Program-made: the position numbers
Source of the DNA: Trypanosoma brucei
Lineage: Eukaryota
Length of the DNA stretch: 64,000 nt
Reading direction: 5' to 3'
Assembly: GCA_000002445.1 (NCBI GenBank)
Contig: CP000067.1
Coordinates: 1,526,433-1,590,432 of the forward strand
Shown here: in pieces, positions 60,001-63,000 of the stretch
Numbering within the stretch: position 1 is the stretch's first letter
Layout of the letters: every line of letters starts with the position of its first letter

Positions 60001-63000
60001 ATTTTAGCGTCGATACAAGGTCTGTCAAGTCATGAACCCACTTTACTTTTTGTAGGGCTTGGACCGCGTTCGTGTTGAAATTTGGAAATTTCACACAGAT
60101 ACCGCTGCCACTGCTGCCGTTGCATTCGGAGCTTTCGAAGGTTTCGAGGTAACCATGGCTTGATTCGACGTGAGTTAATTTTCTGACCGCTTTAATGCGA
60201 CTTCAAAGTTCATGGTGGCTTATTTTTGTGCCCTTCATGACGGATCAGCTTTCCGCAACCGTTTTGAGCTCGATGTCGCTGGGGTTAGTGCCCGAGTCGG
60301 CGGATTTTTTCCAAGCACTGCCGCCGTCTGTACCTTTCGAGCATACAGGCGGGTTTACCGCATTTGTCCCTTTGTCGCACACGCATGCCAGCATTTCCAG
60401 GGCTGTGGCCGCCTTGGATGTCCTAGTTTCTGCTGTACAGAGGGATTCGCGGTTGCGTGAACTTGCACTGCCGAACACAGCATTGTGCGCCGGGTTAGGT
60501 GAGGGTTTCGTGGCTTTACCGTAGATCGCAGTGTTTATCGCGCTCGTTATGTCCGCCGTTGTTATGGTTTTAGTCGTTTTAGCTTCTGTTGCGTAGCGCT
60601 TCCTTAGGTATTTCATCTATGACGCCGCATGATTTATCTCTGTCCGAGAAGTTATGAGCCCTTTCTCGGTTAGTGCCGCAGCGCCGGTCGCCTTAATTTT
60701 GTCTTTCACTAGATCGGTTGTTATTGCTTGTGCGGCTTTCTTCCAGTCGTTCCAGAAATTCTCATAGCCTAGACCTGTTTTCTGGGCTTCATTTGTGGTG
60801 TCGTGAACTGCTTTTGTGTCTTTTCCCTTGTAGACAAGTGATTTCTATGCTGGTGTTGACACTGAGAAATTCAAGTCTTGTATGAACTGGTGCTCGTCGT
60901 CTGTGAGTAGTGGTATAACTGGTATCTCGATATATGCATCGGTTAGCGCGATAATGTTACAAACGGCCGCCTGCTCTGCTCCGTTCGCGTCGGCGACTAT
61001 GTTTGCTGCTTGCGCCATGCTGCATAAAGTTAGCGCTGCTAAAAACACTAGTGTTGCTTGCTTCGGTTTCTGATAGCGATTCATCCACCGCATTCGGTTA
61101 TTTTCACCTTTATTGCTTTGTATGGTTGTGAGATGAGGAGAAAAGTAAGCTTTGCCGCTTGTCATTGTGTGGTTCAAGCGAAACAGTTTACAGTGGTTAA
61201 ACTTTTGTGCATACCATGTGAATATCAACAGTTGTATTCGTGTCAGAAGGTTGTTCGGTGCCGCGTAGTCGGCTTAGGGGTCAGCGCTGTCGTCGTAGCG
61301 TTGAAACTCGTGTTCAGTCACGCGTATTCCTCCTCTGCAATGTGGTGGAAAACAATAAGGTTAGGATTCTCTCTTACAAATTTATGTAATGGTCTTTTCA
61401 CGTGCATCACATAATGACAATCTTGTATATCCACTGTCAGCAAACTATCAAGCTTCATTTTGTGCCTTAATACCTCCCCAACCATAATATCTTCATTCGA
61501 AGCAGCATAATCAATATATTTCTCAAAGTTTCTAAAGCTGATCTTTCTGACTAACAGTTTGGAAATTTCCAAAAAGCCAACTATTTCTTTTACGACATCT
61601 CTTGAAATTGTGTTCGCATACCCAACAACATACCATGTCATTTTGTCAATATACTCGTCAAGTTCACCCAATGCCCTTCCCATATTCAATTTCCCTCGTG
61701 GAAGAACCTCCAGATATTTTAGGTACAATGGCGCCCTCATAAAAATGTCATCATCTGCCTTCATTATATATGGATTAGTTGACTTGAATGTCTCAACTGC
61801 CAATTTGAACCACAGATACGTTTTTCTACTCATAGTGAGCTCCGCTTCCCATCCCCAATTACCCGCGTCTCCCACTTTTTTGCTTGTTGTCGGATTGACA
61901 TCACAAACAGGAAAAATAATAACATCCTGATTTAACTTCGCCTCTTCTTCAACAATATCTCTGAGTACGCAATTGTTATTTGTATGAGCTGAAAGAGCAT
62001 ATACTATAAGCAACTTCCCAGTAAAATTATTTGATTTCCTCGACACTTCATGGTAACTCCAACACGTTTCTCTCTGTAGATTCCTTCTTATAAATCTCTC
62101 ATCATTATCTATTGAATGTATTCCAGCCACAACTAAATAATCTTCAGTTCTCCAAATCCTCCTTACACCCTTGGAAACAAATCTCATACACTCATCTTCA
62201 AGAATTGCTAGCGATATGGAATCATTTTGATTAAAAAACTATATAGCGAAGCAAAAAAATTAATTCTCATAACAATAAAAGAAAAACAGCATACTCTTTC
62301 ACAAATATATTCAGTGTACTTCATAAGATACTACTTTTATCCTAATGATAACTTTAAATATCCTAAAAAATGATAAAAGACCTTAAAGGATATATCAGTT
62401 GCGACAATAATATTATTAAAGAAGCCACGTGTTTACATATAAAAGTGATACATTGATATTATAATAATATAGATATTGTATGGTGTACACTAGGTGGCAA
62501 CAGCCTATCTTTGAGTATGCATCTACATTTTTTGTTTTACAAGTTACATTCAAGAAAAAATACTCCTACACGCTAGAAAAGTCACTACATACATTGTTAT
62601 CGGAATCAAAGTAGTAAGATACAATACTTCCCCTCACGCATACTATGAATTTTGAAAGTAATTTGTTCTAAATTAAATAATCCCTGTTGGTTTCATGAGA
62701 CTAGTATCTGCGTCATCTTATCAGCTATTGCTGTTATTGTTGTTGAAACTATTATCTTCTCAGCAGTATTTTTAATGTGTAAGTGAACATACTGCTGAGA
62801 AGATAATAGTTTCAACATCATTTTGTCGCTTGGTGTGTTGTTGCATGTTTTCACCTTATTCTCTATTGCCGTCAGCTAACCCAGTTCTTGCTGTTCATAC
62901 GCGTGACGAGCCGACTACAAGTTTCAGTTACACTGTACTCTGCCTTTTTCTCGCTGTTTCAATCACTGTTTTGTGTAAATTATTCCCATACTCATCCCTT

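What the first reader, a model, noticed from the sequence alone, without database searches (positions are those of the whole stretch)
61318..62230. Truncated GT31-type glycosyltransferase gene inside the VSG array
The ORF has unmistakable Galactosyl_T motifs (R..IR.TW-like RRNLQRETCW, DDD, EDxxVG) but lacks the N-terminal cytoplasmic/TM/stem region (a stop lies about 30 codons upstream of Met1). T. brucei has a large subtelomeric family of UDP-Gal/UDP-GlcNAc-dependent glycosyltransferases. This looks like an array-resident, 5'-truncated member, probably a pseudogene, although an internally initiated soluble product cannot be excluded.
Basis: partly seen in the sequence, partly recalled or inferred. 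Interest (0 to 1): 0.5.

Follow-up and report, generated by a model that had tools for sequence, protein, structure and literature searches.

The report
Decayed glycosyltransferase gene in VSG array
This is an already annotated Trypanosoma brucei glycosyltransferase gene copy, lying just upstream of a surface-coat (VSG) gene, that lost its membrane anchor to a one-base deletion and its tail to two stop codons, so it is almost certainly a dead gene and an ordinary finding.

Summary
Window 62187-61318 (minus strand) is a 289-codon ORF with a significant Galactosyl_T (PF01762) match. [quoted passage not shown]

The ORF is the longest open stretch of a decayed gene of about 366 codons spanning 62324-61225. 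It is not a 5' deletion.
- The start codon and membrane-anchor coding sequence survive upstream (62324-62238) but are out of frame, through a net 1-nt loss in or near a T6 run (62238-62233).
- The C-terminal ~37 codons also survive (61317-61228) but are cut off by two TGG->TGA changes (61320-61318 and 61245-61243).

The catalytic core keeps every family-invariant residue. Differences from paralogous copies concentrate at third codon positions (dN/dS about 0.2), so the decay is recent compared with the age of the paralogues.

CAZy places this trypanosome family in GT67, derived from a β3GT (GT31-like) ancestor. A model of the closest paralogue best matches human B3GNT2.

Every close relative found is also broken. 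In 5 of 5 loci the GT copy lies directly upstream of a VSG, and in 4 of 4 testable loci it lies downstream of that cassette's 70-bp repeat.

Low interest; already known.

The parts
62366..62394 (-). Pyrimidine-rich tract followed by AG at 62364-62363. This is the candidate ancestral trans-splice acceptor, about 40 nt upstream of the ancestral ATG.
   Evidence: 73% pyrimidines in the 30 nt before the AG at 62364. DNA homology with paralogue locus L001 begins at 62375. Its function is inferred, not shown.
62238..62324 (-). Remnant of the ancestral start codon (ATG 62324-62322), short cytoplasmic tail and TM signal anchor. It reads MKYTEYICERVCCFSFIVMRINFFASLYS in the ancestral frame and is out of frame with the catalytic domain.
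   Evidence: tblastn of P0004 residues 1-29 against 62324-62238 gives 55% identity in frame -3. The DNA alignment with L001 and L002 covers it. Hydrophobicity is weakened: KD 1.65 with an Arg in the segment, against 2.64 in P0004.
62226..62241 (-). Interval that holds the net -1 nt frameshift, most simply in the T6 run 62238-62233. TAG 62241-62239 is the stop that closes the catalytic frame upstream.
   Evidence: In alignment A2, column 167, L001 reads AGTTTGTTTAGT and the window reads AGTTT-TTTAAT. There are 17 nt where the paralogues have 18, between the SLYS and SISL codons. Stop position.
62188..62238 (-). 17 codons of the stem region (FFNQNDSISLAILEDEC), in the catalytic frame but upstream of the first in-frame ATG.
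   Evidence: It aligns to FGEDESISLAIAEDEY of P0004 and FSEGDTISLDIVEDEY of P0006.
61318..62187 (-). The annotated 289-codon ORF plus its TGA stop. It encodes the GT-A catalytic core, with WG (res 111-112), YIMKADDD (140-147, nt 61770-61747) and EDIMVG (232-237).
   Evidence: It keeps all 22 columns that are invariant in a 12-sequence family alignment.
61318..61320 (-). First premature stop, TGA, where paralogues have TGG (Trp of the ...EEEYKW... motif).
   Evidence: L001 DNA reads GAATATAAGTGG and the window reads GAATACGCGTGA. Several paralogue proteins have W at this position: P0002, P0005, P0008 and the conceptual translations of L001 and L002.
61225..61317 (-). Remnant of the C-terminal tail in the same frame (LNTSFNATTTALTPKPTTRHRTTF*HEYNC*). 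It carries a second TGG->TGA at 61245-61243 and the ancestral stop at 61227-61225.
   Evidence: tblastn of P0002 runs through both stops to residue 345 at 61228. Compare F*HEYNC* with FWHEASC* in P0002 and TWHEASC* in the L001 conceptual translation.
63177..63277 (-). Context: the 70-bp-repeat-like element that marks the 5' edge of the VSG cassette holding the GT copy.
   Evidence: It recurs once per cassette on the minus strand at 11 other places in the window and matches 70-bp-like elements in L001-L003.
59700..61093 (-). Context: a B-type VSG pseudogene. Its ATG (61093) lies 131 nt downstream of the GT's ancestral stop. It stays in one frame and has four in-frame stops.
   Evidence: VSG_B Pfam hits on ORFs 60845-61228 and 60245-61616 region fragments; single-frame translation.

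Best explanation
Window 62324-61225 (minus strand) is a recently inactivated copy, a pseudogene, of a kinetoplastid GT67 glycosyltransferase gene. GT67 belongs to the β3-glycosyltransferase superfamily and carries the Pfam Galactosyl_T domain. The copy is carried inside a silent VSG cassette.

The ancestral gene encoded a type II Golgi membrane protein of about 366 residues: a short cytoplasmic tail, a TM signal anchor, a stem, a GT-A catalytic domain with a DDD metal/UDP-sugar site, and a C-terminal tail of about 37 residues ending in a conserved Cys.

Three lesions broke it. A net 1-nt deletion between the anchor and the stem leaves the anchor out of frame, and two TGG->TGA mutations cut off the tail. 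The annotated 289-aa ORF (XP_844696.1) is simply the longest open stretch, starting at an internal Met that was residue ~47 of the ancestor.

Any product would have no route into the secretory pathway and would lack part of the fold, so it should not glycosylate lumenal substrates. That step is inferred.

The copy probably reached this place by duplication of a [70-bp repeat]-[GT]-[B-type VSG] cassette. This too is inferred, from the recurrent arrangement.
For: Family and fold:
- Pfam PF01762 scores above its gathering cut-off.
- The three GT67 motifs listed in PMC9472816 are all present: WG, Y(I/V/F)xKxDDD and ED(A/V/I/L/M)(M/L)x(G/A).
- An AlphaFold model of the 82%-identical paralogue P0002 has pLDDT 91.7. 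Its best PDB matches are the human GT31 enzymes B3GNT2, B3GalT5 and B3GalT6, at E about 1e-11.

Lesions:
- The TM-coding remnant lies in another frame.
- The 1-nt gap appears against L001.
- Both TGG->TGA changes are seen against paralogue DNA and proteins.
- Full-length relatives of 371-395 aa align Met1 to their residues 61-77 and extend 30-40 residues beyond the ORF's end.
- In the P0002 model the missing tail forms part of helix 309-317, helix 319-322 and two terminal strands.
- C-terminal tagging abolishes TbGT10 activity (PMC8477195), which fits an important C-terminus.

Translation: five AUGs lie between the likely ancestral splice site and Met1.

Family-wide decay: all close relatives are fragments or carry frameshifts. 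This covers P0002-P0011 and the conceptual translations of L001-L004.

Recent decay: differences from L001 are 12.5%, 12.2% and 27.4% at codon positions 1, 2 and 3 (p=2.5e-7), and dN/dS is 0.20. After the first stop, the tail differs about equally at all three positions, 43-55%.

Context: the copy sits in a co-oriented VSG array with one 70-bp repeat per cassette.
Against: - The catalytic core is fully open and keeps all family-invariant residues. Its count of private substitutions, 12, is no higher than in other copies.
- GenBank/RefSeq annotates it as protein-coding.
- Pereira and Jackson (PMC5853035) report Tb927.4.5790 as preferentially transcribed in bloodstream forms. That is probably this gene, but the identity is inferred, not verified.
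- A cryptic splice site nearer Met1 is conceivable: AG at 62209 after the T-run.
- No independent sequence of this exact locus was available to confirm the three lesions.
Confidence: 0.85

Rival explanations
1. The 289-aa ORF is a working gene. An mRNA spliced close to 62187 is translated from Met1 into an anchor-less, cytosolic or soluble glycosyltransferase with a new role.
For: - The catalytic core is open and has all invariant residues and the DxD motif.
- dN/dS against paralogues is about 0.2.
- It is annotated as a CDS.
- A bloodstream-form transcript signal is reported for Tb927.4.5790, probably this gene (PMC5853035).
- Three other copies (P0002, P0003, L002) also keep an open catalytic domain without the authentic anchor.
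Against: - There is no signal or anchor (KD 0.21), although the family's known substrates are lumenal.
- It lacks ~37 C-terminal residues that are structured in the paralogue model and end in a conserved Cys.
- Five upstream AUGs follow the best splice-site candidate.
- It lies in a silent VSG array.
- The other copies are broken at different, scattered places, as random decay would give.
- The low dN/dS is also explained by constraint that acted before inactivation.
Confidence: 0.07
2. The frameshift and stops are sequencing or assembly errors, and the real locus encodes an intact type II glycosyltransferase.
For: The indel lies in or next to a homopolymer (T6), a typical error site. Subtelomeric arrays are hard to assemble.
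Against: - It would need three independent lesions, and two of them are base substitutions (TGG->TGA), not indels.
- The TM remnant also carries charged substitutions.
- The tail after the first stop is highly diverged at all codon positions.
- Every other copy in three assemblies is also disrupted.
Confidence: 0.03
3. The copy is kept as part of the VSG cassette. It would serve as flanking homology, or as a gene that is expressed only after the cassette is copied into an active expression site. On this view it is not plain junk.
For: - The GT lies between the 70-bp repeat and a VSG on the same strand in all T. brucei-clade loci examined: window and L001-L004. The 70-bp repeat could be tested in 4 of 4.
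- The distance from the 70-bp repeat to the GT ATG is similar across loci, 757-975 nt.
- The copies show past purifying selection.
Against: - All copies are disrupted.
- The linked VSG here is itself a pseudogene with four stops.
- Only 1 of about 12 cassettes in the window carries a GT.
- No expression data were available.
- The sample of loci is small and was ascertained through GT fragments.
Confidence: 0.05

Closest known systems
Array-resident paralogues in T. brucei TREU927, for example XP_803396.1 (P0002, chr 9, 345 aa; probably Tb927.9.800), Tb10.v4.0188 (P0004), Tb11.0730 and Tb11.0740 (P0006, P0007) and Tb11.1840 (P0008)
   Same: - 63-82% protein identity (52% for P0011) and the same motifs.
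- The same subtelomeric or array setting.
- All are fragments or frame-disrupted.
   Different: - Each copy is broken in a different place. P0004, P0006 and L001 keep the anchor in frame but break later.
- P0002 keeps the natural C-terminus, but its first 24 residues are an out-of-frame reading of the anchor/stem DNA (compare with L001 frame 0).
Characterised T. brucei GT67 enzymes: TbGT3, TbGT8, TbGT10, TbGT11 and TbGT15 (PMC9472816, PMC8477195, PMC11236118)
   Same: - The same CAZy family, by motifs and the Pfam domain.
- The ancestral architecture is type II membrane, ~370-385 aa, with a DDD motif.
- The window ORF is 34% identical to P0017, the representative of the cluster that holds the chr 10 protein XP_823434.1. 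That protein is probably Tb927.10.12290 (TbGT8); the identity is inferred.
- It is 36% identical to P0015, the representative of the cluster that holds the three-copy chr 4 group XP_844575/577/579.
   Different: - Those are intact Golgi enzymes in chromosome cores or at proximal subtelomeres, with demonstrated activities.
- This copy lacks the anchor and the tail, and no intact member of its close sub-family was found.
- Its lineage (1-7 in the scheme of PMC5853035) was not resolved here.
Human GT31 β3-glycosyltransferases B3GNT2, B3GalT5 and B3GalT6 (PDB 7jhl, 6wmm, 8zwp, 9sp7)
   Same: A GT-A fold with DxD. They are the best structural matches to the paralogue model: E 1e-11 to 1e-9, TM 0.51-0.69. 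Pfam PF01762 is shared.
   Different: - Only 13-16% sequence identity.
- No PDB chain is detectable by sequence alone.
- They belong to a different CAZy family (GT31, not GT67).
VSG and ESAG pseudogenes of the silent subtelomeric arrays
   Same: Co-oriented, silent-array residents that are disabled by frameshifts and in-frame stops. The VSG directly downstream has four in-frame stops.
   Different: - It is not a surface-antigen gene.
- Glycosyltransferases make up only about 1% of subtelomeric genes (PMC2854126).
- Here just 1 of about 12 cassettes carries one.

Membership tests
GT67 / β3-glycosyltransferase superfamily (Pfam Galactosyl_T PF01762) | A significant match to the Galactosyl_T profile | tested here: met
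   E=5e-7 and 30.1 bits against a gathering cut-off of 23, residues 120-237.
GT67 / β3-glycosyltransferase superfamily (Pfam Galactosyl_T PF01762) | The three T. brucei GT67 motifs listed in PMC9472816: WG, Y(I/V/F)xKxDDD and ED(A/V/I/L/M)(M/L)x(G/A) | tested here: met
WG at residues 111-112 (invariant in alignment A3), YIMKADDD at 140-147 and EDIMVG at 232-237. Which W the review's 'WG' refers to was not resolved.
GT67 / β3-glycosyltransferase superfamily (Pfam Galactosyl_T PF01762) | A GT-A fold resembling solved β3GT (GT31) structures | tested here: met
   Tested on the 82%-identical paralogue P0002, not on the window ORF itself. pLDDT 91.7; top Foldseek hits are B3GNT2, B3GalT5 and B3GalT6.
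Functional Golgi TbGT (type II membrane glycosyltransferase) | An N-terminal cytoplasmic tail and TM signal anchor in frame with the catalytic domain | tested here: not met
   The ORF N-terminus has KD max 0.21. The anchor remnant lies in another frame, upstream of a net 1-nt deletion.
Functional Golgi TbGT (type II membrane glycosyltransferase) | A complete C-terminal region (30-40 residues beyond ...HH.xExEY) ending near a conserved Cys | tested here: not met
   The ORF stops at EEEYA*. The tail remnant has a second stop.
Functional Golgi TbGT (type II membrane glycosyltransferase) | Expression and UDP-sugar transferase activity | not testable with these tools
   No RNA-seq, ribosome profiling or proteomics could be queried for this locus. 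Only an indirect literature mention of Tb927.4.5790 was found (PMC5853035).
VSG cassette of a silent subtelomeric array | A 70-bp repeat upstream and a co-oriented VSG downstream, within a run of similar cassettes | tested here: met
   70-bp-like element at 63277-63177, VSG_B starting at 61093, and 11 further 70-bp-like elements on the same strand, each with its VSG.

The most novel reading that the evidence does not exclude
This GT67 sub-family is a cassette passenger. A glycosyltransferase gene was historically carried between the 70-bp repeat and B-type VSGs. It would therefore be copied into the active expression site and co-expressed together with its VSG. The third-position bias (dN/dS about 0.2) shows the protein was under selection while the cassettes spread. 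This implies a once-functional, or in unsampled strains still functional, VSG-linked glycosyltransferase.
Probability: 0.08. Interest if true: 0.6.

Novelty: already known. Interest (0 to 1): 0.2.

Why it matters
It matters mainly for annotation. XP_844696.1 is listed as a putative glycosyltransferase and is probably counted among the roughly 20 T. brucei GT67 genes. In fact it is an anchor-less, tail-less remnant and should not be treated as a candidate for the unassigned glycosyltransferase activities.

There is a small wider point. All copies of this sub-family that could be examined sit inside VSG cassettes, between the 70-bp repeat and the VSG, and all are broken, yet they diverged under purifying selection. 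This suggests subtelomeric GT expansion happened by hitch-hiking on VSG cassette duplication from one or more functional sources. It gives a concrete mechanism for the 'transposition between subtelomeres' proposed by Pereira and Jackson (PMC5853035).

Tried and rejected
- **Exact-protein look-ups.** Look-ups of P0001, P0002 and P0005 for genomic context found nothing on record. No TREU927 paralogue DNA could therefore be compared. Paralogue DNA came only from T. b. equiperdum and T. equiperdum OVI (L001-L004).
- **PDB by sequence.** The search gave only chance hits to dynein light chain, E about 0.4. Fold comparison was needed instead.
- **Other GT copies in the window.** tblastn with all 11 sub-family proteins found only this locus. 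Weak hits at E above 1 looked random, so the other cassettes' upstream flanks are not detectably GT-derived.
- **Sequence around the GT.** The stretch between the 70-bp repeat and the GT (63120-62330) and the GT-VSG spacer (61225-61090) have no other copies in the window.
- **L005.** This locus (42% identity, assembly GCA_015033625.1, organism not identified) was too distant and was not used.
- **Literature not available.** The supplementary gene table of PMC8477195 and Marcello and Barry 2007 (PMC1950903) are not held. I therefore could not check whether this gene is among the published 19-20 GT67 genes, or whether GT-bearing cassettes have been described.
- **Gene identifier.** The identification as Tb927.4.5790 rests on elimination and accession-number order only.
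- **Lineage.** Assignment to lineage 1-7 was not attempted, because the characterised TbGT sequences could not be identified by name.
- **A shared frameshift with L002.** MAFFT put the gaps in the same column, but the L002 reading frame (SLYSFFGE) shows its indel lies a few bases further on. The two lesions are probably independent.
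Full report
**1. The observation**

The minus strand carries an ORF at 62187-61318: 289 codons, ATG start and TGA stop.
- RRNLQRETCW, residues 34-43
- DDD, residues 145-147, inside YIMKADDD
- EDIMVG, residues 232-237

Pfam Galactosyl_T (PF01762) matches residues 120-237 with E=5e-7 and 30.1 bits, above the gathering score of 23. The protein is 100% identical over its full length to XP_844696.1 / AAZ11137.1 / Q580N7. [quoted passage not shown]

So the window is T. brucei chromosome 4, and the ORF has been an annotated gene since the genome release. 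By elimination among the chromosome 4 identifiers listed by Pereira and Jackson (PMC5853035) and by accession-number order, it is probably Tb927.4.5790. This is an inference; I could not verify it.

The neighbouring ORFs on the same strand match VSG_B or Trypan_glycop, so the VSG-array setting is real.

One detail needs correcting. The in-frame stop upstream of Met1 (TAG 62241-62239) is the 18th codon upstream, not about the 30th.

**2. Anatomy: what is really there**

*N-terminal side.*
- Paralogues with an intact N-terminus (P0004 = Tb10.v4.0188; P0006 = Tb11.0730) begin MKNIERIYAIIGCLSFIVMVINILVSLYSLFGEDESISLAIAEDEY-MRFV. That is 46 residues, including a hydrophobic anchor, ahead of the residue matching Met1.
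- In the window, the 17 codons before Met1 read FFNQNDSISLAILEDEC in the catalytic frame. This is clearly the stem.
- The anchor itself is also still there, at 62324-62238, but in a different frame: MKYTEYICERVCCFSFIVMRINFFASLYS. It is 55% identical to P0004 residues 1-29.

*DNA comparison with paralogous loci.*
- The exact-protein look-up returned two loci: L001 (T. b. equiperdum chr 9) and L002 (T. equiperdum OVI).
- Nucleotide homology of 80.6% and 80.9% starts at 62375 for L001 and 62328 for L002.
- In the three-way alignment the window lacks one base relative to L001 (AGTTTGTTTAGT against AGTTT-TTTAAT).
- The exact position of the loss is ambiguous within about 62241-62226. The simplest placement is the T6 run at 62238-62233.
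- The anchor remnant has also picked up charged residues. Its Kyte-Doolittle maximum is 1.65 with an Arg, against 2.64 for P0004. The annotated ORF's own N-terminus scores 0.21.

- Paralogues continue ...EEEYKWLMT...FWHEASC* for about 37 more residues.
- tblastn of P0002 runs in the same frame straight through the ORF's stop to residue 345 at 61228.
- The window reads EEEYA*LNTSFNATTTALTPKPTTRHRTTF*HEYNC*.
- Both internal stops are TGA where L001 and L002 DNA have TGG and where several paralogue proteins have Trp.
- The ancestral stop is at 61227-61225.

*Summary of the gene.*
- The ancestral gene therefore spanned 62324-61225, about 366 codons. This matches the 371-395 aa of full-length relatives.
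- In those relatives Met1 aligns to residues 61-77, and 30-40 residues follow the ORF's last residue.
- Met1 is an ancestral internal Met. It is conserved in P0003, P0004, P0006 and L002, and the matching residue of L001 is also Met.

**3. Family and fold**

[quoted passage not shown] This family is specific to kinetoplastids and derives from an ancestral β3-glycosyltransferase. Its motifs are WG, Y(I/V/F)xKxDDD and ED(A/V/I/L/M)(M/L)x(G/A), and it has about 19-20 genes in T. brucei excluding predicted pseudogenes (PMC9472816; PMC8477195).

The ORF has all three motifs and keeps all 22 invariant columns of a 12-sequence family alignment.

An AlphaFold model of the closest paralogue, P0002 (82% identity), is confident: pLDDT 91.7, pTM 0.91. 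Its best PDB matches are the human GT31 enzymes B3GNT2, B3GalT5 and B3GalT6, with E from 1e-11 to 1e-9 and TM 0.51-0.69. Sequence alone finds no PDB relative.

"GT31-type" is therefore fair for the domain and the fold, but the CAZy family is GT67.

In the model, the part missing from the window ORF (P0002 residues ~314-345) forms the end of helix 309-317, helix 319-322 and two terminal β-strands. PMC8477195 reports that C-terminal tagging abolishes TbGT10 activity, which fits a C-terminus that matters.

**4. State of the relatives**

The close sub-family is confined to the T. brucei clade. Every member found is a fragment or is disrupted.
- Database models are 158-345 aa long.
- Tb11.0730 and Tb11.0740 are the two halves of one gene.
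- L001 has the anchor in frame but two later frameshifts. L002 has its own indel between anchor and stem. L003 and L004 change frame several times.
- The longest model, P0002 (345 aa), starts with 24 residues (…YTACLVRVTLFHLKLLKMSI). These match the out-of-frame translation of the anchor/stem DNA (L001 frame 0: …STVCLVRMNPFH*RLLKMST). It too has lost the authentic anchor.

The nearest intact proteins are from T. congolense (378 aa, 42% identity) and T. cruzi (372 aa, 36%). After these come the T. brucei chr 4 three-copy group (384-385 aa, 36%, measured against the cluster representative P0015) and a chr 10 protein (371 aa, 34%, measured against the cluster representative P0017).

**5. How old is the damage?**

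Between the window ORF and L001, differences fall at 12.5%, 12.2% and 27.4% of first, second and third codon positions (chi-square p=2.5e-7). The comparison with L002 gives 23%, 22% and 41%.

Nei-Gojobori dN/dS is 0.20 against L001 (dS 0.62) and 0.26 against L002. So most divergence among copies accumulated while the protein was under purifying selection. Either each copy stayed functional for a long time after duplication, or the copies were seeded at different times from an evolving functional source gene. In both cases the lesions are recent relative to the age of the paralogues.

Three other results fit this:
- The core keeps all invariant residues.
- It has 12 private substitutions, a typical number for the family.
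- The tail beyond the first stop differs from L001 about equally at all three codon positions, 43-55%.

**6. Could the ORF still be expressed?**

The best candidate for the ancestral trans-splice acceptor is a pyrimidine tract followed by AG at 62364, about 40 nt upstream of the old ATG. It lies inside the region conserved with L001.

A transcript spliced there would present five AUGs (62324, 62292, 62270, 62225, 62195) before Met1 at 62187. The first of these opens a 38-codon remnant ORF. That argues against efficient translation of the 289-aa ORF.

It is not proof. An AG at 62209, downstream of the T-run, could act as a cryptic acceptor. A product made that way would have no route into the ER or Golgi and would lack the tail. 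I infer it would be non-functional for the family's known lumenal substrates.

**7. Context**

Reading along the minus strand, the features run in this order:
- A VSG C-terminal domain ending ...GSFLVNKILALIAVPFMSLLF*, with a 16-mer-like 3' element at 63403-63392.
- A 70-bp-repeat-like element at 63277-63177.
- About 850 nt of unique sequence holding a 35-nt inverted repeat (62738-62820).
- The GT remnant at 62324-61225.
- After 131 nt, a B-type VSG pseudogene starting at 61093. It stays in one frame and has four in-frame stops.

The 70-bp-like element recurs once per cassette at 11 other minus-strand sites in the window. The GT therefore lies inside a cassette, where the VSG's upstream flank would normally be. 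Only this one of about 12 cassettes has a GT.

The same order holds in the other T. brucei-clade loci I could fetch:

| Locus | 70-bp-like element | GT | VSG |
|---|---|---|---|
| L001 | ~4165-4190 | 4947-6046 | VSG_B ORF from 6207 |
| L002 | 1-45 | 1019-2112 | VSG_B from 2562 |
| L003 | 3449-3502 | 4357-5534 | 463-aa VSG_B at 5849-7240 |
| L004 | contig edge, not testable | 390-1630 | VSG-like from 1939 |

The GT is directly upstream of a VSG in 5 of 5 loci and downstream of the cassette's 70-bp repeat in 4 of 4 testable loci. The sample is small and was ascertained through GT fragments, so I treat this as a lead.

It suggests the sub-family spread by riding on VSG cassette duplication. Glycosyltransferases are already known to make up about 1% of subtelomeric genes (PMC2854126), and subtelomeric expansion of the family has been described (PMC5853035).

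**8. Verdict**

Three corrections apply:
- A frameshift caused the N-terminal loss, not a 5' deletion.
- There is an additional C-terminal truncation by two nonsense mutations.
- The CAZy family is GT67.

The gene is already annotated and the family is well described, so novelty is low. The main practical consequence is that XP_844696.1 should be regarded as a pseudogene. The cassette association is the only part that might repay a genome-wide look.

Noticed in passing
window 63277-61093; L001 4165-6207; L002 1-2562; L003 3449-5849; L004 390-1939: The order [70-bp repeat] - [GT copy] - [VSG on the same strand] recurs. The GT is 130-450 nt upstream of a VSG start in 5 of 5 T. brucei-clade loci. 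It is 757-975 nt downstream of the cassette's 70-bp repeat in 4 of 4 testable loci. This suggests the GT sub-family spread as a passenger in VSG cassettes.
   Followed up: partly
window 62738-62772 / 62786-62820: A 35-nt inverted repeat, 94% complementary with a 13-nt loop. It lies in the otherwise unique sequence between the 70-bp-like element and the GT remnant.
   Followed up: no
window 61093-59700 (minus strand): The B-type VSG directly downstream of the GT is a pseudogene. It keeps a single reading frame but has four in-frame stops. Its C-terminus ends at ...GTGETNT* with no recognisable GPI signal.
   Followed up: partly
window 63235-63172, 59229-59178, 54257-54193, 51651-51545, 48372-48307, 45018-44909, 41657-41575, 34807-34739, 18421-18360, 13606-13570, 9100-9049, 5477-5412: One 70-bp-repeat-like element per VSG cassette, all on the minus strand. 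In six cassettes measured, the spacing to the following VSG ORF is about 1.1-2.0 kb; the cassette with the GT has 2.1 kb.
   Followed up: partly
P0002 (XP_803396.1, T. brucei TREU927 chr 9) compared with L001 4930-5080: The first 24 residues of the longest annotated paralogue (…YTACLVRVTLFHLKLLKMSI) match an out-of-frame translation of the anchor/stem DNA (…STVCLVRMNPFH*RLLKMST). That gene model also lacks the authentic membrane anchor.
   Followed up: partly
window 62187-61321 compared with L001 and L002: Although every copy is broken, differences between copies concentrate at third codon positions: 12.5%, 12.2% and 27.4%, with dN/dS 0.20-0.26. This implies a functional ancestor or source gene that has not been found in any database searched.
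   Followed up: partly
window 64000-63392 (minus strand): The 3' end of the upstream VSG. It has a Cys-rich C-terminal domain, a GPI-signal-like tail (SFLVNKILALIAVPFMSLLF*) and a 16-mer-like 3'UTR element, TATATTTTAACA, at 63403-63392.
   Followed up: no
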